From NCBI GenBank assembly GCA_016206785.1, contig JACQQV010000031.1, positions 35,860 to 99,859 of the forward strand: a stretch of DNA of 64,000 nucleotides, in the 5' to 3' direction. A model generated the notes under the pieces. That model had not been told where the DNA came from. It ran no database searches and worked only from the letters and a program-made list of their open reading frames with translations. The position numbers and the translations under genes are program-made. Shown piece after piece: positions 1,213 to 57,579 of the stretch (position 1 is the stretch's first letter; each line of letters starts with the position of its first letter). This stretch comes from Candidatus Omnitrophota bacterium. Its GTDB lineage: Bacteria; Omnitrophota; Gorgyraeia; JACQQV01.

Positions 1213-1240
1213 TGGTACCTCCGTTAAAAGTTTACTATAA

Positions 1241-1274
1241 CATAAAAAAGCGCGCCGGTCAATCAAGCGCGCTT
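1241..1274 (-). terminator. Rho-independent terminator downstream of the giant gene
   Basis: Inverted repeat AAGCGCGC(1248-1255)/GCGCGCTT(1267-1274) with an 11-nt loop. On the minus-strand transcript it is followed by CUUUUUUAUG (reverse complement of 1241-1250). Confidence 0.5.
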
Positions 1275-19592: not shown

Positions 19593-22500
19593 TTAGAGAC
19601 CGCGGTTTTCGCGATAGAACTTGTCAAACTCTTCGAGTTCCTGGCTAACCGGCTGAAGAATGACTGTAAATTCTCTTCCTCCGCTTTGAAGAAGTGCTTC
19701 TTTAGCCACTTGATCCATCCCAAAGATTTCAACCATTTCACGGAGGGCCAAGGCCCCATTGGCAACTCCTGATTCACCCTTTGCTGGATTTCCAGCAACG
19801 AGATAAGCGTAGAGGCGAACCCCTGCTCCCCGATAGAGAGCGACAATCTCTTTCGGAGCGATCAACTCACGAAGTGGGGAGCCCTGGAATTCCAATTCCT
19901 CAGCCACAGCTACAGGATCTGTGACATCGACCTGATCTTTGGTTAAAGTCACCTGGAATGCCCCACGAAGATCGACAACGCCATTGGAATCCTTAAAGAC
20001 CCCTGCAACGACCGCGTTTCCAGATCTCCCTGAGGTTGAGATGAGACTAAATCCAATTTTGGAACCTGAACGCTTCAGTTGACCGGCAAGATGCGCAATC
20101 TGTCGAGCGATTGTGAGATTATTAAGCGCCTCTTCGTAGACGGCCACCGTCCCCAGTTCTTGAGACTGGAGAATGGCGGACGACAAAGGTTGTGACAATG
20201 ACGGGAATGTTCTCGTCAAAATATCCCTCACGGACGCGACATCCGTTCTTGTACTTCCATCGGCAACAGCGATTGGTGAAGCCTGAACCTCCGCATAAGC
20301 CGGTGTCGCCATCGGCGTCGAAACAGGTATGCCAGCCGGCACACCCGAAAGAATGTGGAGCCAATTCGTCTCATAGACAGGCTGATTTGGGGAAAACGCT
20401 TCATCAAGACGTACCGCTACTTCATTCGCCCGCTGTCTTTCTTCTGTGGTCATCTGACGTAAGATTTCCCCTACGGCATCCCGCACCGGCAAATCTACTC
20501 CTGAATTTTGAGAGGTAGTAAGAAGAAGTTGTGCAATATCGGAATCGCTACGCGGTTTGACCCCTGCAATAGCCTTCACCGCGTCCACACTTTGAAGCGG
20601 CTTCGCCTCTTTCCGCCCACCGTCCATCACTCCCGCGAGTTTCTTTGCGATATTGAGAGGCGTGTCAATCATATACTCCCTAAAATCAGGGCCGCGGAAG
20701 GCCATCGCCCCCGCTGGCGGTACTCCCATCCCCACAAGCCGCTCGTAGGCGCGAGTGACCCTTTCGATATCGACCCCCTCTTCTTTCATCTTATTGACCA
20801 CTTGGCGAGCTTTTTCATACTTGACTTCCTCCGCGGCAATCATTTCGAGGCGCTCCTGGGCATATTTCGTAAGAGTTGCATCGTCGTCTTCCGAAAGAGG
20901 TTTAAGGATCCCCTTTACAATATCCGCCACGGACCCGCCCTTTTCCACCTTCCGGAAAGTCTCCTTGTACTGACCTTTAAACCGGTCATCGAGTTCTACC
21001 AGGATATTCATCGCAAGTCTTCTGGCGATATCCTGCTGGGGGGTGAGCGTCAGGGAAAAAGTATTCAAGAGTTCATAACTGGTTCCGGCAAAGAGCCCTT
21101 TCTGCACCACGTGTCCTTCGCGCGCCACGTCCACCATTCCCGTTTCCTGAAGATGGGTGTCGATTTCATCCAGAATCTCAAGGACCTTGTCGAATTTCGC
21201 ATAGGCCGAATAGAGTGTGAACAAATGATCAAACACAGTAGCCATGAGGACTCCGGAGAGAGAATCATCCATCATGGGAAGAGGAATAACGATAGTAGCA
21301 CTTTTGCGAATCCGTTGGTCATTGGCAAGAGATTCATCCACAACAGCAATAACATTTCCTTGGGATCCTCCTTTATCCAGAGGTCCGATACGATCGCGAA
21401 TTTCCCCGAGAGCCTGAACCATCTGTTCCGTGTAACTATCTTTTCCAATATAAAGGATAGTGGTCATCCCGGGTTTTAATTCTGCATAAGGGCCATGTTT
21501 CCCGACATTCGCAGGATAGTTTTTGACCCGTTCATGACGGAGCACTTCCTGAAGTTTCAAGCGGCTTTCTGAAGCGACGACCGCGTAGGAACCCAGCCCC
21601 TCAAACCAGATAAAAGGATTGTCTTCTCGACCAAAAGTGGCTTGGACCGCAGTCATTACTTTTTCAAGAAGGTCGGGGTTCACTTTTCCTCTGTCATCAA
21701 TAAAGATTTTGCTCTGGAGGGCATCGACAACGTCATACAGCCTTTTGACGATGACTCTTACCTGATCCTCTGTGACGCGGTTTGTCTTAAGCATGAAGTC
21801 AGTCAACTGAAGGGTCATTGCGATGATTGCGCCTGTCAGCGATCCTGTCGCGGCAACGGAATTTTCAAAGGTGTTGATCGTGTGTACGCTGTGCGGCGTC
21901 TGGTCCTGGGCGCGGGCTAAGTTATCGATCGGGCTTCCCGGTACGTTGGTAAGTACAGAGACCAGGATGCGATCTTTGGGATTCTCAACTTTTACATTGA
22001 TGTCTTGAATCATTTGAAGCGCCTGCTTTGTTTCTTCGGTCGCTCCACTATTGGAGACACCGATCACCAGATGGCGAGGACCCTGGTGATCGGCATTCTT
22101 CAAAAAATCCTCATAAGAAGCGAGTTCCTTGGGAGGAGAGACCTTGAAATCAAAACCGTTTCGGGGGTGAATGGGAACTTCAAGAACTTTGTCGAAGATA
22201 GAAGCAATCGTCTCGGAGAGATGGGCGCTTGTTCCAACACCGACGAGCCAAATATGACGGATGTTCTTGAGGTCCTCGGCGCCGTAGTTCAGCTGATGAA
22301 GGTAAGGCAATCCATTTCGCGTCAGAGAATTTAATGTTCTCCTCCAAGCGACTCTTTGTGCAAAAATTTCCTGTTCAAGATAAGTGTCCCGCCCGCGCTC
22401 GAGACTTTCAAGATCCACCTGCGGTGTTAAAGTAGGAGGGATGATCGGATCGCCTGTGATATAATTTTTAAATTGGACATCGGTCCCTTTCACGGTGACA

Positions 22501-24008
22501 ATTTGTTCCCGGCCGACGTCACGGACACTGACAATTCCTCTTTTCCAATCCCGGAGTTGCTGAGACAGCTCGTGCTCAGGGTCTTCTGGAGGGGCAACGG
22601 GGTACGGTTCCCCCGTGATACCCGAGAAAGCACGGTTTTCGGACGCACCATAGAGTGCACCTTCTTTAGGAAGAGAAATGGTGATGTCTCCTCCCTCCTG
22701 GCCACGGGCCAATACGATATCAAACCCTGCGTTTGAAACGGCGGCAATAGCAAACGTTGAGGCATTCCCACCCCCATAAAATTCCTTTTGCGCCTGGTTG
22801 ACGAGTTTATTTCGGTCGATAGAAGAGGGGAGCTTCTGTGAAACCTCCTCCAAAAGCCTGTCTCGGAAACGGATATACTTTCCATCATAGTGGTCTGGAT
22901 GTCGCAATCCGTCTTTGATCAGATCAAAGTTATGCTGCCGAACTGCATCCAAGGTTTCTGTCTCTTCGAGAACTTTTAAAGTTTCCCGGACCAACTTTTC
23001 AGCAATGCCCCGCACTGCAGCAAAGGTACTATCCTGGGAGATCAGGAGGCCATGGGTATTATGCCAATCTTCATAATCCTGAACGATCCGAAAGGCTCTC
23101 TGCACCGCTTTCGTCAAATCAACGGAACCGTCAGACTCCCTCGTCGCCATAAGTGCTACCAAATTTGCAAAAATTTCAGAGTCGGTCTGCCCTTTGAAAT
23201 CGGAAGCGAGGCGAAAGGGGCTTTGGGTCCCCGGTCTGGTACTATTCAGCATGCGGTCTTTAAAAGCATCCGCCCCTAAGAAATTCCCATTGTGGACAAG
23301 TGCAACTTGAAATCCGATTTCATCATTGCGCGCCAGAAAAGGATGGGCATTTTCATCAGAAATCACACCAACAGTCGCCCAACGGGTATGCCCGATCCCA
23401 ACCTGTTCAAACTTCACAGTCTCAAGATTGCCGCCCTGCTGTGTAATGATAGCCTGATCTTTTCGTGGGTCGATAGAGACATTGGAAGCCGGAACATGGT
23501 AGAGCCGGGCAATGTCACTTTTCAGGCCCTGATGGAGTTCTGTGCGGATTTTTTCCCTGAGGACCTTCGCATTCCCGGCATACTTGGAAACATGAACAAA
23601 ATAGGCCGCTTTCCTGTCCGGGCCGGGGATTTTGGTTACAATTGCCTGACCGTATCCGTCGTAACCGCCACTTAACAGTTTTTCAGTCTGTGTCTGAAGC
23701 ACTCCAATGGTATCCTGCACGCCAGTGACAAAGCAGAGACGGCACTCTACAGGAGATTTCCGTAGATTCAGAATGTCGTACCCCCGCGCCAGTGATCCGA
23801 ACCGTTTTGCGAAGTCTTTCGCGAGCGGCTCCTCAAGAGAAACGCCTCTTAATTCATCGATTAATTGTTTGCGGTTTCCGTCCTGAGAGTTCATGAGGGT
23901 TGGAGTCCGGAGATGAGAAACTGTGTGGGGGCGAGAAGCCCATGCAACAGTAGAAAAGGTATTGGAAAAAAGGAAAAGTTGTACGGTAAGCACTGCGACG
24001 ATTTTCAT
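19593..24008 (-). CDS. Second giant secreted protein (1471 aa): GlmS-like (class-II amidotransferase-like plus two SIS domains) fused to a ~500-aa Ala/Gly/Val-rich unknown C-terminal region
   Basis: The track ORF 19593..24134 reads through the leader. The start is refined to ATGAAAATC at 24006-24008 ([24 protein letters not shown] signal peptide), with a GGAGGTGAG RBS immediately upstream. Its stop lies only 35 nt before the 6085-aa gene start. Confidence 0.75.
   Translation of the reverse strand: [1471 protein letters not shown]
21129..23756 (-). other. GlmS-like region of the 1471-aa protein (GATase-like aa ~85-470; SIS1 ~560-760; SIS2 ~780-950)
   Basis: [21 protein letters not shown] aligns with [21 protein letters not shown] in glmS (39373..41208). 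The SIS motifs are [12 protein letters not shown] and [41 protein letters not shown] aligns with FLGRGVNFPSALEGALKLKEL in glmS. The N-terminal nucleophile Cys position is internal (ECRLCFVTG), so it is probably not an Ntn-type active amidotransferase. Confidence 0.65.
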
Positions 24009-24100
24009 CTCACTCACCTCCAAATTCGGCTGGGGGTCTTTTGGGTCTCCACCTCTCACCTTGGGAAGAAGGAAGCCAAAGCCCCCGTCGCCGAATCGAA

Positions 24101-24137
24101 ATAAAAAACCAGGTTGCCCTGTTCCTTTAGGCAACCC
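24101..24137 (-). terminator. Intrinsic-terminator-like hairpin plus U-tract inside the 5' leader of the giant-gene operon (attenuator candidate)
   Basis: On the minus-strand RNA the structure is GGUUGCC-uaaaggaacag-GGCAACC followed by UGGUUUUUUAUU. On the plus strand the stems are GGTTGCC (24113-24119) and GGCAACC (24131-24137), with the A-tract at 24101-24110. It sits about 95 nt upstream of the start codon at 24008 and about 180 nt downstream of the predicted promoter. Confidence 0.5.
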
Positions 24138-24317
24138 GGCTGTCTATTCTAGATCCAAGGTTTTGCAGTCCCACCCTCACGGATGGTTTGCTCTTATCTA
24201 GTGAACCATTCGGCTAAAAACAAATTCCGTTTCAAAAGAACTAAACTTATTAACCATTTAAAAAGGCTTAAGTTACGAACGAAAAAAAATACATGGACTC
24301 GTTCCCTTTTGTAACAA

Positions 24318-24346
24318 AGTATACCATTCAACCCGTAGGTTGTCAA
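24318..24346 (-). promoter_or_regulatory. Consensus sigma-70-type promoter for the giant-gene operon (TTGACA-17-TATACT)
   Basis: The minus-strand sequence reads cccTTGACAacctacgggttgaatggTATACTttg. The -35 box is the reverse complement of 24341-24346, the -10 box is the reverse complement of 24318-24323, and the spacer is 17 nt. Confidence 0.55.
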
Positions 24347-24378
24347 GGGAAAATATCTACCTATTGCGTCAACTAATA

Positions 24379-24400
24379 GGGACGCTTTCGGATGCGTCCC
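24379..24400 (-). terminator. Hairpin downstream of the HscB-like gene (weak terminator candidate)
   Basis: GGGACGC-tttcggat-GCGTCCC forms a perfect 7-bp stem. There is no strong U-tract after it on the minus strand. Confidence 0.3.
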
Positions 24401-24435
24401 CTGGGGACGGATTAGAGCCGAATTGGAAAACGTCC

Positions 24436-25077
24436 CTAATGGTGGACTCGCCCGCCGGTCTCGATCGATTGGAGGAGGTTCTTAAGGTAGGTGATTTCAT
24501 CTATCGTCTTGCGGATCGTCTTGGCAAGCGTTTTCTTCTGGGCGGGGTTGTTCTCTAAGTAATCCCATTCCTTTGTATAGGCCTCCAAGGAGAGGTGGCG
24601 CGTTTTCATTTTTGATTCAACCTCCTTCTTGGCTGAAGCAAGTTCCGCTTGGAGTGCCGAATCCTTCGTCCGTTTCTCCTCTTCTATCTTTTCCTGGATT
24701 TCAAAAATCTCCGCCGAAAGCGCGGGGTCTACCTTCGTTCTCTCTTTCTCAGGGGCGGGGACTTCAAGGTCAAGGAGATATTCAACCCGTGCGACCAGGT
24801 TCTTTAAGGTTTTATAGGCGTCGTTGAGAAGAGACGTTTTTTCGAGGCTATAGCGTTTCTCTTTGTCACTTTTCCCTTGAAAAAGATCGGGGTGGAATTT
24901 CCGACTTAATTCATAAAAAGTCTTGTCGAGAAGGGAACTATCAAGTTCCATCCCCCGAGGGAGCCCAAGGAAGGAAAAATAATCTTTTGTAGAAATCGGT
25001 TGGATTTTCTGGCAATGCTGACAGAAATGACTCGGACCCGGATCGTTCTGACAAGACCAGCAGAGAGAAGTTGTCAT
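24436..25077 (-). CDS. J-domain co-chaperone (HscB-like) with an N-terminal CxxC...CxxC zinc finger
   Basis: The J-domain is DYFSFLGLPRGMELDSSLLDKTFYELSRKFHPDLF, carrying the HPD motif. The N-terminal zinc-finger region is CWSCQNDPGPSHFCQHCQ. The C-terminal part is a helical region. The start is uncertain: the track ORF extends to 25152 and abuts tRNA-Asp, so MTTSL is chosen. Confidence 0.5.
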   Translation of the reverse strand: MTTSLCWSCQNDPGPSHFCQHCQKIQPISTKDYFSFLGLPRGMELDSSLLDKTFYELSRKFHPDLFQGKSDKEKRYSLEKTSLLNDAYKTLKNLVARVEYLLDLEVPAPEKERTKVDPALSAEIFEIQEKIEEEKRTKDSALQAELASAKKEVESKMKTRHLSLEAYTKEWDYLENNPAQKKTLAKTIRKTIDEITYLKNLLQSIETGGRVHH

Positions 25078-25154
25078 AGGCGAGAACTTGTAAGGCCTCT
25101 CATCCCGCATAGCGGGATTCGAGGCCATTTTGCCACATCTTGCGCCATTCAAAA

Positions 25155-25233
25155 TGGCGGTCCCGACGAGATTCGAACTCGCGATCTTCAGATTGACAAT
25201 CTGACGTGTTAGACCGGGCTACACCACGGGACC
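25155..25233 (-). tRNA. tRNA-Asp (anticodon GTC), CCA encoded
   Basis: The reverse complement is GGTCCCGTGGTGTAGCCCGGTCTAACACGTCAGATTGTCAATCTGAAG...GGTTCGAATCTCGTCGGGACCGCCA. The anticodon arm is TCAGA/ttGTCaa/TCTGA. The acceptor stem is GGTCCCG/CGGGACC. Confidence 0.8.
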
Positions 25234-25418
25234 TCGCTCGCAAATTCATGGAGAGCGCATTGCTCGCTCTCCAATGGGGAAAACTACGTTTTCCCCCTAT
25301 GGCGTCCGCCAAAGATCGTTGGCGGACTGTTACCCCCTTTCCTAAACATAGAACAGTTTATAACAAAATCCGAGAGAATCGAATAATTTTTGACATGCTC
25401 AGCTTAGTAAGTAACCAA

Positions 25419-25495
25419 TGGTGGGCGAAACAGGACTCGAACCTGTGACCCCGTGGATGTAAGCCACGTGCTCTAACCAACTGAGCTATTCGCCC
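25419..25495 (-). tRNA. tRNA-Val (anticodon TAC), CCA encoded
   Basis: The reverse complement is GGGCGAATAGCTCAGTTGGTTAGAGCACGTGGCTTACATCCACGGGGTCACAGGTTCGAGTCCTGTTTCGCCCACCA. The anticodon loop is cTTACATc. Confidence 0.8.
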
Positions 25496-25776
25496 GTTCG
25501 TTTCAGTTTAATAAACTCGTAGGCGAGAAGTCCAATATACGTGCCGAAGAGTCCTAAAAGCCCCGCCCGGCGGCTCACCCATTTGGCGCTCACGATAACA
25601 AAAATTCCGGCAAAAAGCAAAAGGTATCGGGACGAGAAAGCCAGAAGAAAAGAAAGGTTCGGTTTGCGAAGGCTCCCTAAACGCATGACCCACTTTTTAA
25701 GGAGAAAAAAATTAAAAAAAGAGAGCCCCGCCCCAAAGAAAAGTCCGCCTAAAGAATAGATCGGTTCAGGGAACAT
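25486..25776 (-). CDS. Small hydrophobic membrane protein (hypothetical)
   Basis: This ORF has two or three predicted TM helices (LGGLFFGAGLSFFNFFLL and LLLFAGIFVIVSA...LLGLFGTYIGLLAY). I recognised no family, and its 3' end overlaps tRNA-Val by about 10 nt, so it may be spurious. Confidence 0.3.
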   Translation of the reverse strand: MFPEPIYSLGGLFFGAGLSFFNFFLLKKWVMRLGSLRKPNLSFLLAFSSRYLLLFAGIFVIVSAKWVSRRAGLLGLFGTYIGLLAYEFIKLKRTGE

Positions 25777-32167: not shown

Positions 32168-33406
32168 TTAAAAAAGTTCCAGCTGCTTATCCTTCTCCTG
32201 CGCCGCTTCCTCTCCTCCAAAAATCTCTATTTTCCCATATTCTCCGTCGTAGCCGGGATGGATCTTAAGCCTCCCCTCCCGAACACGGAGAATGCCTTCG
32301 GCGACTTTGGGAGGCGCTTGTTTTCGAAGAGCTTCTCCTGACGCCTCAAAGAGGATCAAAAACTCGTTTCCAAATTCCTGAATAAGTCTTTGATATTCCC
32401 TCTCAACGGCCTGGGAAGCAACGCCAACTCCCAGCGCTTCAGAAATAATTTCATCCAACGGAACCATGTTCCGATAAGGAATCGCCCCTCCCAGCCGGAA
32501 CCCCTCAGGTCGATCCGCAAGCGCATCCACCCGATGCATGACCCCAATCGTGACAGGCTTCCCACAGGTCGTGCAGCGCCCCTTGTGCGATTTTGTTTCC
32601 GCAGGAGACCAGACGACGTTGCACTTCCGGTGGCCGTCAAAATGATACTTTCCCTCTTCCGGGAAAAATTCGATGGTGAAAAGAAACCGTTTTGGATCTT
32701 TTCTTTGAATCGCCTCCGCGATCTCGCCATAATCCAGTTCACAGTCAAAACAGTTCGCCTCCCGTCCGAGCCGGCGGGCACTGTGACAATCGGAGTTAGA
32801 AATAAGCGCATACCGATCCAGACGGCTCAAACGCCAATTCATTGCGGGGTCACTGGAGAGCCCTGTCTCGAGGGCGAAAATGTTTTTTGCTTCCTCTTCG
32901 TAACATTCCTCGACGGTATCAAATCCTGACTGAGACCCAAAGATCGCGAAATGGGGCGTCCAGGCATGGGCCGGAATAATCAGCGCACGGGGCTCCACTC
33001 CCAGAACGATCTTCACCAGTTGCCTCGCTTCCATCATGAGAAGCGGTCTTCCGTCACTCCCCAGGTCTCCAAAAGAGGCGAGTTCCTGATTCATCTTCTC
33101 GACCGACTCCAGGCTCGGTGAAAAAATAAGGTGGTGGATATTCTTTGCCTTCCCTCCACGATAGAAAAGGGTGTTGACTTCCGTCGTCAGGATAAAATGA
33201 ACGCCATGGTATTCAAAAAGCCCGCGTCCTGTCGGGGCAAGATCTCTTTTCAGCCCCTCAAACCACAACGGATGGGTAAAATCGCCGGTCCCGATGAGCC
33301 CCACTCCCTTGAGTCGAGCCCACTTGCTCAGTTCCTTAAGATCGAGTTGGTTGCTCGTCGCCCGGCTATATTTGGAGTGAATGTGGAAATCGGCAATAAA
33401 TTTCAT
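32168..33406 (-). CDS. PHP-domain (polymerase/histidinol-phosphatase-like) metal-dependent phosphoesterase family protein
   Basis: The N-terminus is [18 protein letters not shown]. It has multiple His/Asp metal ligands and is embedded within the pyr operon. Confidence 0.55.
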
Positions 33407-33846
33407 AATGTTTTTAGAATTTGTGAAGCGCGCTTCCAGTGAGTCGCCGCCCAGTAAAGACGCTTACACGAAGGACATTGAGAAAAATCCTTTTGGGTTT
33501 TAAACACGTAAGGAGGTACTTTCCTTCCAACCTTTTCCTTGGCAATCCGTTTCACAGGGACATTACAGAGGAGGCATCGCAAAAAAAGCCGCTTCATTGA
33601 AAGACGGATACCGCATGATCTCCGAAGTTCCTTGAGTTGCTCGCCGAATCGATCGTGCCGGATAAGCCAAACCGGTGTCCCCCGATGACCTCTAAGGGCC
33701 AAGTGCCTTGTCAAAATGATCCGCTCATCCGCCGTCGCCTTGGCCAAGAGATCCGCAATGCGCCCCTTGAAAATCTCAGCGTCGTACCCAACAGCCCTAA
33801 GCCACTTGGCTAACCGCCCGAGTTCTGGTGTCAGCAGAAATTTCAC
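33403..33846 (-). CDS. Mut7-C RNase-domain (DUF82) protein
   Basis: [23 protein letters not shown]... plus a C-terminal zinc ribbon CLLCNVPV...CPSCKRLYW. Confidence 0.55.
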
Positions 33847-34928
33847 TTTGCCATCACCCTGATAAATTCGTCGAAAAGATATCGCGCATCATGGGGACCC
33901 GGTGAAGCCTCGGGATGATACTGGACAGAAAAAACAGGAAGTTTTTTATGGCGCATCCCTTCGACGGTTTTGTCGTTCAGATTGACATGCGTCAGTATCA
34001 TTTCCCTGTCCGGGATTGAATCAATATCGACGCAGAATCCATGGTTCTGGGCGGTAATTTCCACTTTTTGACTCGCAAGATGGAGAACCGGATGGTTCCC
34101 CCCATGATGGCCGAACTTGAGTTTAAAGGTCCGCCCGCCGAATGCAAGACCCAGAATCTGGTGACCGAGGCAGATCCCGAAGATCGGAAGTTTGTCTAAA
34201 AGATTCCGCACCGTCTCGATGGCATACGTCACTGCTTCTGGATCACCCGGACCATTTGAAAGGAAGAGCCCAGCCGGCCGATAAGAAAGAACTTCGTCGG
34301 CGGTCGCGGAAGCGGGGAGTACCGTGACGCGGCACCCAAGTGCGGTGAGTTGCCGCAAAATATTCTGCTTAATGCCATAATCCATCGCGACCACAGGATA
34401 CGGGCTGGCCGCCTCTTGAGGGTTCCAGACATACGGTTTTTCACAAGTCACCTCTTTCACAAGGTCCCTTCCCACAAGGCCTGGAGACTCCTGCACTTTC
34501 TTAAGGAGTTCTTTGGGATTGTGTGTTGTTGTGGAAATGATTCCCTTTTTTGCGCCCTGTGTCCGAAGATGCTTGGTGAGCGCTCTGGTATCGACCCCCT
34601 GAATCCCCACAATCCCATATCGCGTTAAATACTCCTTAAGACCCCCCTCGGCGCGGTGGTTACTTGTGATTTGACTGAGTTCCTTGACCACAAATCCCTC
34701 GACAAACGGCCGTCGGGACTCAATATCTTCCTCATTCACTCCGTAATTCCCGATATGCGGATAGGTCATGGTGACTATCTGACCCTTATAGGAAGGATCC
34801 GTAAGGATCTCTTGATAACCGGTCATACTGGTATTAAAGACGACCTCCCCAAAGGCTTCCCCTTCCGAGCCGATCGACTCCCCTTCCAGCAAAAAATTGT
34901 CTTCCAGGCAAAGGGAAGCCTTTTTCAC
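33843..34928 (-). CDS. carA: Carbamoyl-phosphate synthase small (glutamine amidotransferase) subunit
   Basis: The GICLGHQ catalytic Cys motif and the HH...E triad region. 361 aa. Confidence 0.9.
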
Positions 34929-35704
34929 GGTGAGGAATCCTCCTTTAAAATAAGCCTCATTCTCTTTTCCATCTCTTGGGTAATCTCAACGAGTTTCACA
35001 TGCTCCGGCCGAAATTCAAATTCCTCTTCTAAAAGTTCCAAGTTCGGTTGAATGTCCCAAAAATGCTGTCTCATGACCTCCTGACCCGATGCGTCGTACA
35101 GGACAAGGTCCTGAAGGAGCCCATGTTCATCTGAAATTCTCATGCGACAGAGCGCGGGGGTAAGCACCCCTTGATGCCGAATCGCCTTTTTGGGAACCCC
35201 TTCAAAAAGGTATATAGTTTTGCCATCGATTCTCTCTTCATCCAAAAACTGAAGCGTCTTCGTCTCTATGAGATCAAAAGGATTCTGAAGATTAAGAAGA
35301 TCCTGGGATGCAAAGGCATCCGGATATTTCCCCCGAAGGACTTCTTCCTGCTGGCGGAAGGCGATCCTCGCGGAAGGGAGATATTGCCAAACAATCCCCC
35401 CCTTCCAATAGATGACCTGACTCAATTCCTTTGAATCACGAAGGGACATCTCGGTCCGAAGCATCTTCGGCCATTTGAAAAGGGTGACCCCTGTTAAGAA
35501 AAATTCTTTCCCATCGGCGAGGAGCCAAAGATCAAAATTGGCTTTGTAACTCTGGACACCGAGTGCCTTCTGTTCAACTCGTGAAGCGATATGACTTCCA
35601 AGATCTTCTGCCCTCACCATGAAGGAAAGGGCCGACATCCCCACGATGCCGACGGCCACGGCTCTCAGAAAGGAGAAGTTAGTCACCCTTTGTAATTTTC
35701 CCAT
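34925..35704 (-). CDS. Signal-peptide-bearing periplasmic protein, LolA-like/outer-membrane-lipoprotein-sorting fold (tentative)
   Basis: It has an N-terminal hydrophobic signal sequence and its length and composition resemble the LolA/RseB family. The assignment is weak. Confidence 0.3.
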
Positions 35705-55806: not shown

Positions 55807-57579
55807 ATGACAGTAGTGGCGCAAGCAGGAACAACCAATAAGCATGTGCTTCTCTGGATAGAGGAGATGGTAAAACTGTGTAAGCCGGATCGCGTTCATT
55901 GGTGCAACGGCTCGGAAGAAGAGAAGGCAGAACTTCTCAAAGAGGCGGTCCGGGTCGGGGACTTCGAGGCCTTAAACCAAGAAAAACTTCCCGGCTGTTA
56001 TCTGCACCGTTCAGCGCCCAATGACGTGGCACGGACGGAACACCTCACTTTCATCTGCACAAGAAATAAGGACGATGCGGGTCCGACAAATAATTGGATG
56101 GAACCCAAAGAGGCCTACCAAAAACTGGAGGCGATTTTCGACGGGGCCATGCGGGGCCGCACCCTTTACGTGGTACCATTTATCATGGGGCAGCCCGGTT
56201 CTCCTTTTAGCAAAGTAGGGATTGAAGTGACGGACAGTCTCTACGTCGCCTTAAACATGCGGATCATGACGCGGATGGGGAGTGTTGCTTGGAAGCAGTT
56301 GGGGGATTCCAACGATTTCACACGCGGCCTTCACAGTAAGGCAGATCTCAACGAGAACCGCCGCTACATCTGTCATTTCCCAGAGGACAACACCATCTGG
56401 AGCGTTGGTTCAGGATATGGTGGGAATGCCCTCCTCGGGAAAAAATGTTTGGCCCTTCGAATTGCCAGCTGGCTCGGAAGGCAGGAAGGGTGGATGGCAG
56501 AACATATGCTCATTATTGGGGTGGAAGATCCGCAAGGGGAGGTCACTTATCTGACCGGCGCTTTCCCGAGCCAGTGCGGGAAAACGAATCTGGCGATGCT
56601 TATTCCTCCCGCTTCTCAAAAGGGGTATAAGGTCTGGACGGTCGGGGATGATATTGCATGGCTTAGGATCGGTCCTGATGGGAGACTTTGGGCAACGAAT
56701 CCCGAAGCCGGTTTTTTTGGAGTCGCCCCAGGAACAAATACCCTCTCCAATCCGAATGCGATGGCAACGATCCGGCGGGATACGTTTTATACCAATGTCC
56801 TTAAAAAACCGGATGGGACCGTCTGGTGGGAAGGGATGGACGGAGAAACGCCCCGAGAGGGGGTCGATTGGCGGGGGAACCGTTGGACCCCTGATTCGAA
56901 AGAGAAAGGGGCCCATCCGAACAGCCGTTTTACTGCACCGGCATCGCAATGCCCGTCGATTTCACCGCAGTGGGAGGACCCCAAGGGGGTACCGATTAGC
57001 GGCATCCTTTTCGGAGGACGACGTGCAAAAGTTGCGCCGCTTGTAGTTCAGGCGCGCAACTGGCAACATGGCGTTTTTGTAGCGGCCACAATGGCCTCTG
57101 AGACAACGGCCGCTGCGACAGGGAAAGTGGGGGTCATCCGGCGCGATCCGATGGCGATGCTCCCATTTTGCGGTTACCATATGGGGGATTATTTTAGTCA
57201 TTGGCTTGCGATGGGGAAGCGCCTTGCCAACCCTCCGAAAATTTTCCATGTGAACTGGTTCCGGACCGGAGAGGATGGAAAATTTCTTTGGCCAGGATAT
57301 GGTGAAAATCTCCGGGCACTCCGGTGGGTCGTAGATCGTTGCCAGGGACGGGGGGAGGCTGTTGAGAACCCGATCGGATTTCTCCCTCCTGCTTCTGCAA
57401 TCGACAGGACCGGTCTTTCTTTGACGGAAGAAGCCCTTAAGGCATTACTGAGTATTGACCGATCCTCCTGGGAAGAGGAATTGCAGTTACAATCCGAATT
57501 TTTTCATTCGCTCGGCGAAAGGGTGCCGCAGGCGCTTTGGGAGGAGCATGCCGCTCTTTCGAAACGTTTGGACCTGTAA
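55807..57579 (+). CDS. pckG: Phosphoenolpyruvate carboxykinase (GTP)
   Basis: YGGNALLGKKCLALRIAS, the kinase-1a loop FPSQCGKTNLAML, and FHVNWFRTGEDGKFLWPGYGEN. Confidence 0.9.
   Translation: MTVVAQAGTTNKHVLLWIEEMVKLCKPDRVHWCNGSEEEKAELLKEAVRVGDFEALNQEKLPGCYLHRSAPNDVARTEHLTFICTRNKDDAGPTNNWMEPKEAYQKLEAIFDGAMRGRTLYVVPFIMGQPGSPFSKVGIEVTDSLYVALNMRIMTRMGSVAWKQLGDSNDFTRGLHSKADLNENRRYICHFPEDNTIWSVGSGYGGNALLGKKCLALRIASWLGRQEGWMAEHMLIIGVEDPQGEVTYLTGAFPSQCGKTNLAMLIPPASQKGYKVWTVGDDIAWLRIGPDGRLWATNPEAGFFGVAPGTNTLSNPNAMATIRRDTFYTNVLKKPDGTVWWEGMDGETPREGVDWRGNRWTPDSKEKGAHPNSRFTAPASQCPSISPQWEDPKGVPISGILFGGRRAKVAPLVVQARNWQHGVFVAATMASETTAAATGKVGVIRRDPMAMLPFCGYHMGDYFSHWLAMGKRLANPPKIFHVNWFRTGEDGKFLWPGYGENLRALRWVVDRCQGRGEAVENPIGFLPPASAIDRTGLSLTEEALKALLSIDRSSWEEELQLQSEFFHSLGERVPQALWEEHAALSKRLDL

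What the first reader, a model, noticed from the sequence alone, without database searches (positions are those of the whole stretch)
24101..24346. Consensus promoter, ~200-nt structured leader and an intrinsic-terminator-like hairpin upstream of the giant-gene operon (riboswitch/attenuator candidate)
On the minus strand, TTGACA-17-TATACT (24346-24318) is followed by a long untranslated leader. Near its end the leader carries GGUUGCC-loop-GGCAACC-UGGUUUUUUAUU (24137-24101), about 95 nt before the start codon.

A terminator inside a 5' UTR is the classic expression platform of riboswitches and attenuators. It would allow conditional expression of the 22-kb, very costly operon. I do not recognise a known aptamer class in the leader.
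Basis: seen in the sequence. Interest (0 to 1): 0.6.

Follow-up and report, generated by a model that had tools for sequence, protein, structure and literature searches.

The report
Cyclic-dinucleotide riboswitch before giant-gene operon
The long leader in front of a 23-kb two-gene operon of an Omnitrophota bacterium holds a known RNA sensor for bacterial cyclic-dinucleotide signals (GEMM-I / c-di-GMP-I class) wired to a transcription terminator, so this costly operon is probably switched on only when that signal is high.

Summary
On the minus strand there is a near-consensus promoter with an extended -10 (24346-24318). About 210 nt downstream there is a strong intrinsic terminator (24141-24099), about 91 nt before the ATG at 24008.

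Rfam c-di-GMP-I (RF01051, GEMM-I) matches 24202-24127 at 52.5 bits (gathering score 35, E 2e-7 for the window). The 5' arm of the terminator is the 3' half of the aptamer. The nascent RNA folds as the aptamer and the full-length RNA folds as the terminator. This predicts a ligand-activated ON switch.

The ligand-contacting positions read A20/A47/C92. A at position 20 marks the c-AMP-GMP-sensing or bispecific subclass (GEMM-Ib), so the ligand is c-di-GMP and/or 3',3'-cGAMP.

The controlled unit ends at its own terminator (1273-1244). It encodes two signal-peptide proteins of 1471 and 6085 aa built from divergent metabolic-enzyme domains. No orthologous leader was found. A second Omnitrophota genome has the same aptamer type upstream of a pilin-like gene.

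Verdict: a new member of a known riboswitch class in an unusual genetic context.

The parts
24318..24346 (-). Sigma-70-type promoter. -35 TTGACA at 24346-24341, 17-nt spacer ending in TGg (extended -10), -10 TATACT at 24323-24318. Predicted transcription start near 24311.
   Evidence: 11/12 with TG. It is one of 4 such sites in the window, against 0.68 expected, and all 4 lie at operon heads. The transcription start is inferred, not mapped.
24208..24311 (-). AU-rich 5' spacer of about 105 nt between the predicted transcription start and the aptamer. No significant structure.
   Evidence: z = -0.17; no Rfam match. A spacer of similar length (~100 nt) precedes the aptamer in the Omnitrophota locus L086.
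24121..24207 (-). GEMM-I (c-di-GMP-I class) aptamer; the Rfam core is 24202-24127.
- P1: UAG 24200-24198 with CUA 24130-24128, plus GUUC 24206-24203 with GAAC 24124-24121.
- P2: 24191-24165, with GUGA tetraloop.
- P3: 24162-24133.
- Ligand-contact positions (Vc2 numbering): A20 = 24192, A47 = 24164, C92 = 24131.
   Evidence: RF01051 at 52.5 bits, gathering score 35, E 2.2e-7 for the whole window; all 20 model pairs are standard pairs, and the nascent RNA folds this way; the fold is supported by covariation in 35 A20-type aptamers including this one.
24099..24141 (-). Intrinsic terminator (expression platform). 13-bp stem, 9-nt loop, tail U6AU3. Its 5' arm (24141-24129) is the 3' strand of P3 plus C92 plus the 3' strand of P1.
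   Evidence: -21.5 kcal/mol, z = -5.0; the full-length MFE contains the terminator plus an alternative helix, ACUAGAU (24202-24196) with AUCUAG (24154-24148), which replaces the aptamer.
24025..24095 (-). Second long imperfect hairpin between the terminator and the ribosome-binding site. Role unknown; possibly a stabiliser or processing site for the read-through mRNA.
   Evidence: -34.7 kcal/mol, z = -2.9; unique in the window. It has no U-tract, so it is not a terminator.
24006..24021 (-). Shine-Dalgarno GGAGGUGA (24021-24014) and start codon AUG (24008-24006) of gene 1.
   Evidence: sequence; the protein from this ATG is identical over 1471 aa to the NCBI model HY590_04745.
19593..24008 (-). 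Gene 1. 1471 aa, N-terminal signal peptide, divergent GlmS-like GATase and SIS domains.
   Evidence: No homologue other than itself in the protein database or in either contig collection.
1301..19558 (-). Gene 2. 6085-aa giant protein starting 34 nt after gene 1. It has a signal peptide followed by these domains: PPDK/PEP-synthase, PALP, AMP-binding, aromatic amino-acid lyase, CDO-like, 2-hydroxyacid dehydrogenase, glycerate kinase (DUF4147 + MOFRL) and PEPCK.
   Evidence: Its N-terminal ~55 aa are homologous to those of gene 1 (E 1e-8).
1244..1273 (-). Intrinsic terminator closing the riboswitch-controlled unit: AGCGCGC, 11-nt loop, GCGCGCU, then U6. It overlaps a promoter-like site (1262-1234) for the downstream isocitrate/isopropylmalate dehydrogenase gene.
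   Evidence: sequence read directly; promoter-like site 10/12 with TG. The terminator was found by eye; the scan's loop limit excludes it.

Best explanation
The leader is a transcriptional ON riboswitch of the GEMM-I fold (Rfam c-di-GMP-I).

Proposed mechanism:
1. RNA polymerase starts at the consensus promoter, near 24311.
2. It transcribes an unstructured AU-rich spacer of about 105 nt and then the aptamer (24207-24121).
3. If a cyclic dinucleotide is bound, P1 and P3 are locked. The ligand is c-di-GMP and/or 3',3'-cGAMP, because position 20 is A.
4. The segment 24141-24129 is then unavailable, the terminator cannot form, and transcription continues.
5. The read-through transcript covers a roughly 23-kb unit of two genes (24008-1301) encoding secreted multi-enzyme proteins of 1471 and 6085 aa.
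6. Without ligand, that segment pairs with 24119-24109. The 5' side of the aptamer re-pairs as ACUAGAU/AUCUAG, and transcription stops at the U-tract (24108-24099). This yields a leader RNA of about 210 nt.

What is shown: the promoter match, the aptamer match, the overlap of the two structures, their energies, and the limits of the unit. What is inferred: the transcription start, ligand binding, the direction of switching, and the physiological meaning. That meaning would be coupling an expensive secreted machinery to a surface-contact or prey-contact second messenger.
For: - **Aptamer match.** RF01051 scores 52.5 bits against a gathering score of 35, covering the whole model (1-87), with E 2.2e-7 for 64 kb on both strands.
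- **Pairs preserved.** All 20 pairs taken from the Rfam alignments (plus a 3-bp P1) are standard pairs here, several differing from the Rfam consensus on both sides. The 21st model pair, A49.C61, is a mismatch.
- **Covariation.** Across 35 A20-type aptamers including this one, 91.4% of cells are paired, against at most 44% when partners are slid. 12 pairs change on both sides, and 0 of 500 shuffles reach the observed covariation.
- **Conserved core.** GCAAACC, a GNRA loop (GUGA), GGGAC, GCAAA, the AG bulge and UGCC are all present.
- **Two exclusive folds.** RNA ending at 24120 has the GEMM-I fold as its MFE. Full-length RNA has the terminator. The terminator has z = -5.0.
- **Promoter.** 11/12 plus TG, one of four such sites, all at operon heads.
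- **No competing signals.** There is no promoter-like site between the terminator and the ATG. The unit is closed by its own terminator at 1273-1244.
- **Second example in the phylum.** Omnitrophota locus L086 has the same layout: consensus promoter, ~100-nt spacer, A20 GEMM-I at 51.1 bits, then a terminator. There it precedes a pilin-like gene.
- **Literature.** The base at position 20 contacts the ligand; G favours c-di-GMP and A favours c-AMP-GMP or both (PMC6140456, PMC9481103). Geobacter GEMM-Ib switches are terminator-based ON switches (PMC6456294). Omnitrophota giant genes are associated with pilZ genes and GGDEF domains (bioRxiv 10.1101/2023.11.21.568195).
Against: - No orthologous leader could be found, so there is no locus-specific conservation. 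Gene 1 has no relatives in any collection searched. The three relatives of the giant's N-terminal part have no GEMM match upstream.
- One P3 pair is a mismatch (A49.C61, flagged).
- There is a one-nucleotide insertion (U24167) after the conserved GGGAC.
- The aptamer starts about 105 nt from the predicted transcription start, which is farther than usual.
- No binding, termination or expression data exist.
- Whether this organism makes c-di-GMP or cGAMP was not testable from the window. No GGDEF, EAL, HD-GYP, PilZ or CD-NTase gene was found among the window's ORFs.
- The ViennaRNA energy of the bare aptamer fold (-14.7 kcal/mol) is much weaker than that of the terminator fold. Switching therefore depends on tertiary and ligand energy and on kinetics, which were not modelled.
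Confidence: 0.85

Rival explanations
1. Same riboswitch, but the physiological ligand is 3',3'-cGAMP (c-AMP-GMP) rather than c-di-GMP. It would be a GEMM-Ib-type switch outside the Geobacter lineage.
For: Position 20 is A (24192), with A47 and C92 retained. A at this position marks c-AMP-GMP-responsive aptamers (PMC9481103, PMC6140456). Geobacter examples are about 1200- to 1600-fold selective (PMC6456294, PMC8835794).
Against: A20 alone does not give selectivity. Vc2 G20A binds c-di-GMP at 53 nM and cGAMP at 120 nM. The natural Cbe 1-2 aptamer binds c-di-GMP at 30 nM and cGAMP at 463 nM. Bispecificity is described as widespread, and the further determinants are unresolved (PMC6140456). The exact motif AAGAGCAAACC occurs in at least 119 genome stretches from many phyla. 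No cGAMP synthase was seen in the window. c-di-GMP components are documented for Omnitrophota (bioRxiv 10.1101/2023.11.21.568195).
Confidence: 0.3
2. The main product is the ~210-nt terminated leader itself, acting as a small RNA or second-messenger sponge. This would resemble the massively expressed riboswitch RNA (merRNA) of the predator Bdellovibrio. Control of the operon would be secondary.
For: A near-perfect promoter with extended -10 is followed by a very stable terminator, so much short RNA would be made in the unliganded state. Some Omnitrophota are predatory, and merRNA is a c-di-GMP-I aptamer RNA of a predator (PMC3627812).
Against: Unlike merRNA, this aptamer is followed on the same strand by a well-formed SD, an ATG and a 23-kb unit that has no promoter-like site of its own. 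The terminator overlaps the aptamer in the way expected for cis control. The two roles are not exclusive.
Confidence: 0.1
3. The hairpin is simply the terminator of the upstream DnaJ/HscB-like gene, or a chance hairpin. The aptamer match would be fortuitous or a decayed relic, and the operon would be constitutive or controlled elsewhere.
For: There is no conservation of this leader in other genomes. There is one mismatched pair and one insertion relative to the model. The first 110 nt are unstructured.
Against: The Rfam E-value is 2e-7 for the window, and every ligand-contact and tertiary-contact nucleotide is intact. The terminator lies 295 nt beyond the upstream stop codon, behind a consensus promoter. 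The upstream gene has its own stem-loop at 24438-24377. The precise overlap of aptamer and terminator is not expected by chance.
Confidence: 0.04

Closest known systems
c-di-GMP-I riboswitch (GEMM-I, Rfam RF01051; type example Vibrio cholerae Vc2)
   Same: It has the same fold: a short P1, P2 with a GNRA tetraloop, and P3 with an AG bulge. It has the same conserved core, including A47 and C92. It passes the family's curated score. It sits in a 5' leader with an expression platform.
   Different: Position 20 is A rather than the G that pairs with one guanine of c-di-GMP. P3 is of the short type. One extra U follows GGGAC.
c-AMP-GMP (3',3'-cGAMP) riboswitches, GEMM-Ib (Geobacter Gs1761, Gm0970)
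   Same: A at the position-20 equivalent. Terminator-based ON switch. Controls extracellular or secreted functions (PMC6456294, PMC6140456).
   Different: The phylum differs (Omnitrophota rather than Geobacter). Selectivity is untested and depends on features beyond A20 that are not defined in the literature I could read. The downstream genes are giant multi-enzyme proteins, not cytochromes or pili.
Bispecific A20 aptamers (Clostridium beijerinckii Cbe 1-2; Vc2 G20A; Desulfobacca acetoxidans cluster 3)
   Same: An A20/A47/C92 pocket in an otherwise ordinary GEMM-I background. This is the background most like the present sequence (PMC6140456, PMC9481103).
   Different: Those were measured. This one was not.
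GEMM-I leader in Candidatus Omnitrophota bin E14 (locus L086, JAUSCZ010000039.1)
   Same: Same phylum and same A20 motif. Consensus TTGACA-17-TATATT promoter, ~100-nt spacer, aptamer (RF01051, 51.1 bits), then an intrinsic terminator.
   Different: It is not orthologous. It precedes a 123-aa N-methyl pilin-like gene, a TPR protein and glycosyltransferases. Its P3 is long. Its terminator does not directly overlap the aptamer.
Bdellovibrio bacteriovorus merRNA
   Same: A c-di-GMP-I aptamer in a bacterium with a predatory lifestyle. A strong promoter would give abundant short RNA (PMC3627812).
   Different: merRNA has no downstream ORF. Here an SD, an ATG and a 23-kb coding unit follow directly.

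Membership tests
c-di-GMP-I (GEMM-I), Rfam RF01051 | Covariance-model score at or above the curated gathering score (35 bits), over the full model | tested here: met
   52.5 bits, model positions 1-87 of 87, E 2.2e-7 for the window.
c-di-GMP-I (GEMM-I), Rfam RF01051 | P2 and P3 helices with a GNRA tetraloop and an AG bulge, supported by covariation | tested here: met
   20 of 21 model pairs are standard pairs here (mismatch A49.C61). In 35 A20-type sequences, 91.4% of cells are paired and 12 pairs have compensatory changes.
c-di-GMP-I (GEMM-I), Rfam RF01051 | Ligand-contact nucleotides G20, A47, C92 (Vc2 numbering) | tested here: inconclusive
   A47 (24164) and C92 (24131) are present. Position 20 is A (24192), not G. 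The fold is a member; the canonical c-di-GMP pocket is altered at one of three positions.
c-di-GMP-I (GEMM-I), Rfam RF01051 | Binds c-di-GMP | not testable with these tools
   Needs in-line probing, ITC or a gel shift.
c-AMP-GMP riboswitch (GEMM-Ib) | A at the position-20 equivalent, with A47 and C92 kept | tested here: met
   AAGAGCAAACC against the consensus AAaGGCAAAcc, GCAAAA, and UUGCC. The meaning of this position is taken from PMC6140456 and PMC9481103.
c-AMP-GMP riboswitch (GEMM-Ib) | Selective binding of 3',3'-cGAMP over c-di-GMP | not testable with these tools
   A20 alone gives bispecific binding in Vc2 G20A and Cbe 1-2 (PMC6140456).
c-AMP-GMP riboswitch (GEMM-Ib) | The host encodes a cGAMP synthase (Hypr GGDEF or DncV-like) | not tested
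   None was found among the window's ORFs.
c-di-GMP-I-GGC variant, Rfam RF03167 | Score at or above 59 bits, and G at position 47 (consensus GCGAA) | tested here: not met
   50.6 bits, below 59. The sequence has GCAAAA, so position 47 is A. This model also scores A20/A47/C92 aptamers of other phyla above its threshold, so its near-hit says nothing about variant identity.
c-di-GMP-I-UAU variant, Rfam RF03168 | U at position 20 and U at position 92 (consensus aaUgCAAA ... UGUC) | tested here: not met
   Positions 20 and 92 are A and C.
Transcription-terminating riboswitch expression platform | An intrinsic terminator whose stem is mutually exclusive with the ligand-bound aptamer | tested here: met
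   The terminator's 5' arm (24141-24129) is the aptamer's 3' strand. The MFE switches from aptamer to terminator once 24119-24099 is added. Function in vitro was not testable.

The most novel reading that the evidence does not exclude
The A20 aptamer is a cGAMP-selective or dual c-di-GMP/cGAMP sensor that acts as the master switch for secretion-targeted giant multi-enzyme proteins in Omnitrophota. That would be the first regulatory handle on when these enigmatic giant genes are expressed. It would also extend riboswitch-based cGAMP signalling well beyond Geobacter.
Probability: 0.25. Interest if true: 0.6.

Novelty: new member of a known kind. Interest (0 to 1): 0.4.

Why it matters
The RNA itself belongs to a well-known class, so the mechanism is not new. 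The value lies in what it is attached to.

Giant genes of Omnitrophota, including a recently described class of multi-enzyme metabolic giants, have no known function or regulation. Neither of the two preprints on these genes that I searched mentions a riboswitch.

A cyclic-dinucleotide ON switch in front of such an operon makes a concrete, testable prediction: these proteins are made when the second messenger for surface attachment or prey contact is high.

It also gives a small RNA that can be tested in vitro without cultivating the organism. The A at position 20 adds an open question about which dinucleotide is sensed in this phylum.

Tried and rejected
**Orthologous leaders for covariation**
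- Gene 1 has no relative other than itself in the 5.8-billion-protein database, in genome contigs or in metagenome contigs.
- A 29-base aptamer pattern that leaves P2 free to covary found nothing in the metagenomes.
- Exact look-ups of gene 1 and of P0001, meant to fetch more of the source contig, failed.

**Relatives of the giant's N-terminal PPDK-like part**
- P0002, P0003 and P0004 are Omnitrophota proteins of 1.7-2.3 kaa.
- Their upstream regions have no GEMM match at the gathering threshold or at E up to 1.
- They lack the shared N-terminal module.
- A general link between giant genes and GEMM-I could therefore not be shown.

**Other regulatory elements in the leader**
- A second aptamer or tandem arrangement was looked for. 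There is no other Rfam match at E up to 10 in 23500-25700, and the 5' spacer is unstructured.
- The second hairpin (24095-24025) is not a repeated element; it is unique in the window.

**Variant families**
- Assignment to the GGC variant was rejected. The score is below threshold and position 47 is A. That model also over-scores ordinary A20 aptamers.

**Specificity determinants**
- The primary GEMM-Ib papers (Kellenberger 2015, Nelson 2015, Ren 2015) are not held in the library.
- I relied on PMC6140456, PMC9481103, PMC6456294 and PMC8835794 instead.

Full report
**What is in the sequence**

Reading the minus strand from 25500 downwards, the order is:
- tRNA-Val and tRNA-Asp;
- a DnaJ-domain, HscB-like ORF (25077-24436);
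- a 90-nt gap;
- TTGACA-17-TATACT at 24346-24318;
- a leader of about 300 nt;
- the SD GGAGGUGA and an ATG at 24008.

The promoter match is 11/12 with a TG extended -10. In the whole 64-kb window only four sites reach 11/12, against 0.68 expected in shuffles (0.035 with TG). All four sit at the head of a transcription unit: rnpA, dnaA, the pyr operon and this leader. Sigma-70-type consensus promoters therefore appear to be in real use in this genome, and this one is credible.

It has a 13-bp stem (24141-24129 with 24119-24107), a 9-nt loop and the tail UUUUUUAUUU. Its energy is -21.5 kcal/mol with z = -5.0. One correction applies: the first ~110 nt of the leader are AU-rich and no more structured than shuffles (z = -0.17).

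**What it is**

With gathering thresholds, the only non-tRNA hit in the window is c-di-GMP-I (RF01051, GEMM-I). It lies at 24202-24127 on the minus strand, scores 52.5 bits against a gathering score of 35, covers the full model, and has E 2.2e-7.

With E-value thresholds, the clan competition displayed the c-di-GMP-I-GGC variant model instead, at 50.6 bits, below its gathering score of 59. This near-hit is not informative. The same variant models score ordinary A20/A47/C92 aptamers from Planctomycetota and Nitrospirota above their own thresholds, although those sequences lack the variants' defining bases.

Read by eye, the conserved core is complete:
- GCAAACC;
- P2 closed by a GUGA tetraloop;
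- GGGAC, with one extra U after it;
- GCAAAA;
- P3 with the AG bulge;
- UUGCC.

Twenty of the 21 model pairs are standard pairs in this sequence; one P3 pair, A49.C61, is a mismatch.

To test the fold on sequences of the same subtype, I collected GEMM-I aptamers carrying the motif AAGAGCAAACC. At least 119 genome stretches from many phyla have it. I aligned 34 of them with the window sequence. On the GEMM-I structure:
- 91.4% of cells are paired, against at most 44% when partners are slid by 1-3 columns;
- 12 pairs carry changes on both sides;
- none of 500 shuffles reaches the observed covariation.

**How it most likely works**

The 5' arm of the terminator (24141-24129) is exactly the 3' strand of P3, plus C92, plus the 3' strand of P1. 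P1 extends into what becomes the terminator loop (GUUC 24206-24203 with GAAC 24124-24121).

Folding RNA that ends at 24120, before the 3' arm of the terminator exists, gives the GEMM-I secondary structure as the minimum-energy fold. Adding 24119-24099 switches the minimum to the terminator. An alternative helix, ACUAGAU (24202-24196) with AUCUAG (24154-24148), then consumes the 5' side of the aptamer.

This is the standard architecture of a ligand-activated ON switch. Bound ligand holds the shared segment in the aptamer and polymerase reads through. Without ligand, transcription ends near 24100. The same logic is documented for Geobacter GEMM-Ib switches, where terminator-weakening mutations bypass the need for ligand (PMC6456294). 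The direction of switching here is inferred from structure, not measured.

**Which ligand**

In Vc2 numbering the three ligand-contact positions are A20 (24192), A47 (24164) and C92 (24131). Canonical c-di-GMP-I has G20. An A at this position pairs with the adenine of 3',3'-cGAMP and is the hallmark of c-AMP-GMP-responsive GEMM-Ib aptamers (PMC6140456, PMC9481103).

A20 alone does not give selectivity:
- Vc2 G20A binds c-di-GMP at 53 nM and cGAMP at 120 nM.
- The natural Clostridium beijerinckii aptamer binds c-di-GMP at 30 nM and cGAMP at 463 nM.
- Geobacter aptamers are 1000-fold or more cGAMP-selective, for reasons not yet defined (PMC6140456, PMC8835794, PMC6456294).

The A20 motif is taxonomically widespread. 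I therefore leave the ligand as c-di-GMP and/or 3',3'-cGAMP. I give about 0.3 to cGAMP being the physiological signal.

**What it controls**

The source is an NCBI MAG named Candidatus Omnitrophica bacterium; gene 1 is HY590_04745.

Gene 1 (24008-19593, 1471 aa) has a signal peptide and weak GlmS-like GATase and SIS domains.

Gene 2 starts 34 nt later (19558-1301, 6085 aa). It has a signal peptide followed by these domains:
- PPDK/PEP-synthase;
- PLP-enzyme (PALP);
- AMP-binding;
- aromatic amino-acid lyase;
- cysteine-dioxygenase-like;
- 2-hydroxyacid dehydrogenase;
- glycerate kinase;
- PEPCK.

The two proteins share a homologous N-terminal module of about 55 aa. Canonical stand-alone GlmS and PEPCK genes lie elsewhere in the window, so these are extra, divergent copies.

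The unit ends at a GC-rich hairpin plus U6 (1273-1244). This overlaps a promoter-like site for the next gene. The riboswitch thus governs about 23 kb.

A 2026 preprint describes "multi-enzyme metabolic cluster" giants as one architectural class in Omnitrophota. A 2023 preprint links Omnitrophota giant genes to pilZ genes and GGDEF domains. Neither mentions a riboswitch. Coupling such an operon to a cyclic-dinucleotide signal is therefore plausible and, as far as I could find, not reported.

**Comparative evidence and its limits**

No orthologous leader exists in the collections I could search. The upstream regions of three related PPDK-like large proteins from other Omnitrophota have no GEMM match.

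The only phylum-level support is locus L086 from another Omnitrophota MAG. It carries a consensus promoter, a ~100-nt spacer, an A20 GEMM-I aptamer (51.1 bits) and a terminator. These lie upstream of a pilin-like gene, a TPR protein and glycosyltransferases.

The window contains no cyclic-dinucleotide synthase, phosphodiesterase or PilZ gene. The rest of the genome could not be reached.

**Rivals**

- *Terminator of the upstream gene.* This is unlikely. That gene has its own stem-loop directly after its stop codon (24438-24377). The consensus promoter lies in between. The overlap with a significant aptamer match is not expected by chance.
- *Sponge or small-RNA role for the terminated leader.* This would resemble Bdellovibrio merRNA (PMC3627812). 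It cannot be excluded and is compatible with cis control. Unlike merRNA, however, this aptamer is followed by an SD, an ATG and a long coding unit without its own promoter-like site.
- *The second hairpin (24095-24025).* It has -34.7 kcal/mol and z = -2.9, and is unique in the window. It has no U-tract, leaves the SD largely free, and remains unexplained.

**Verdict**

The aptamer is a known class (GEMM-I / c-di-GMP-I), of the A20 subtype associated with cGAMP or dual sensing. It is a new member of a known kind. The interest is moderate and comes from the unusual cargo and from the open ligand question.

Noticed in passing
window 1301-24008 (minus strand): The two genes under the riboswitch are signal-peptide proteins of 1471 and 6085 aa. 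They are made of divergent copies of central-metabolism enzymes: GlmS-like, PPDK/PEPS, PALP, AMP-binding, HAL/PAL, CDO-like, 2-hydroxyacid dehydrogenase, glycerate kinase and PEPCK. Canonical stand-alone GlmS (41208-39373) and PEPCK (55807-57579) are also in the window. Gene 1 has no homologue other than itself in 5.8 billion proteins.
   Followed up: partly
window 24008-23844 and 19558-19376 (minus strand): The N-terminal ~55 residues of both proteins are homologous: a signal peptide, then SHLRT...DG..QL..EL (BLASTP E 1e-8). This may be a shared export or anchoring module. It is absent from the related Omnitrophota PPDK-like proteins P0002 and P0004.
   Followed up: partly
window 24025-24095 (minus strand): A 71-nt imperfect hairpin (-34.7 kcal/mol, z = -2.9) lies between the riboswitch terminator and the ribosome-binding site. 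It is unique in the window and has no U-tract. Its function is unknown.
   Followed up: partly
window 1234-1273 (minus strand): An intrinsic terminator closes the giant-gene unit (AGCGCGC, 11-nt loop, GCGCGCU, then U6). It overlaps a 10/12 promoter-like site with TG for the downstream isocitrate/isopropylmalate dehydrogenase gene. The true start of that gene is probably the ATG at 1243, not the TTG at 1266.
   Followed up: partly
window 49425 (-), 49451 (+), 38661 (-), 24346 (-): Four sigma-70 consensus sites of at least 11/12 are present, against 0.68 expected by chance. They lie at the heads of dnaA, rnpA, the pyr operon and the riboswitch leader. The divergent pair at ~49.4 kb flanks the dnaA/rnpA intergenic region. 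With dnaN, dciA, gyrB, gyrA and parAB nearby, this is likely the chromosomal origin region.
   Followed up: partly
L086 6709-7095 (minus strand); JAUSCZ010000039.1, Candidatus Omnitrophota bin E14: A second Omnitrophota GEMM-I leader of the A20 type. It has TTGACA-17-TATATT, a ~100-nt spacer, the aptamer at 6963-6869 (51.1 bits) and a terminator ending in U7. Then come a second promoter-like site and an N-methyl pilin-like gene, followed by a TPR protein and glycosyltransferases.
   Followed up: partly
L024, L025, L049, L096, L097, L098, L119: The Rfam variant models c-di-GMP-I-GGC (RF03167) and c-di-GMP-I-UAU (RF03168) score aptamers with A20/A47/C92 above their own gathering thresholds. These aptamers lack the variants' defining bases. 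Automatic annotation with these models can therefore mislabel ordinary or A20-type GEMM-I aptamers.
   Followed up: partly
L096 1496-1576 (minus strand); Nitrospirales bacterium NPIRA04: This is the aptamer most similar to the window's. It shares CUAGAUAAGAGCAAACC, the GUGA loop, GCAAAACC and GCCGGGUU.CCUAAGGAA, including the A-U pair in P1. It comes from a different phylum and is followed by GGGAGG and AUG rather than a terminator.
   Followed up: no
window 24267-24293 (minus strand): An 8-codon ORF (AUG UAU UUU UUU UCG UUC GUA ACU UAA; MYFFSFVT) lies in the AU-rich 5' spacer. It has no clear Shine-Dalgarno sequence and is probably chance.
   Followed up: no
window 24377-24438 (minus strand): A long stem-loop (UAGGGACGUUU...AAAGCGUCCCUA) starts at the stop codon of the DnaJ/HscB-like gene and has only a weak U-tract. 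It may be that gene's terminator or a stabiliser. GGGACG/CGUCCC occurs several times in 24374-24434.
   Followed up: partly
window 32168-33406 and 34925-35704 (minus strand): Two ORFs without Pfam matches (412 and 259 aa) and a Mut7-C RNase-domain gene (33403-33846) are interleaved with the carA/carB and pyr genes of an otherwise ordinary pyrimidine operon.
   Followed up: no
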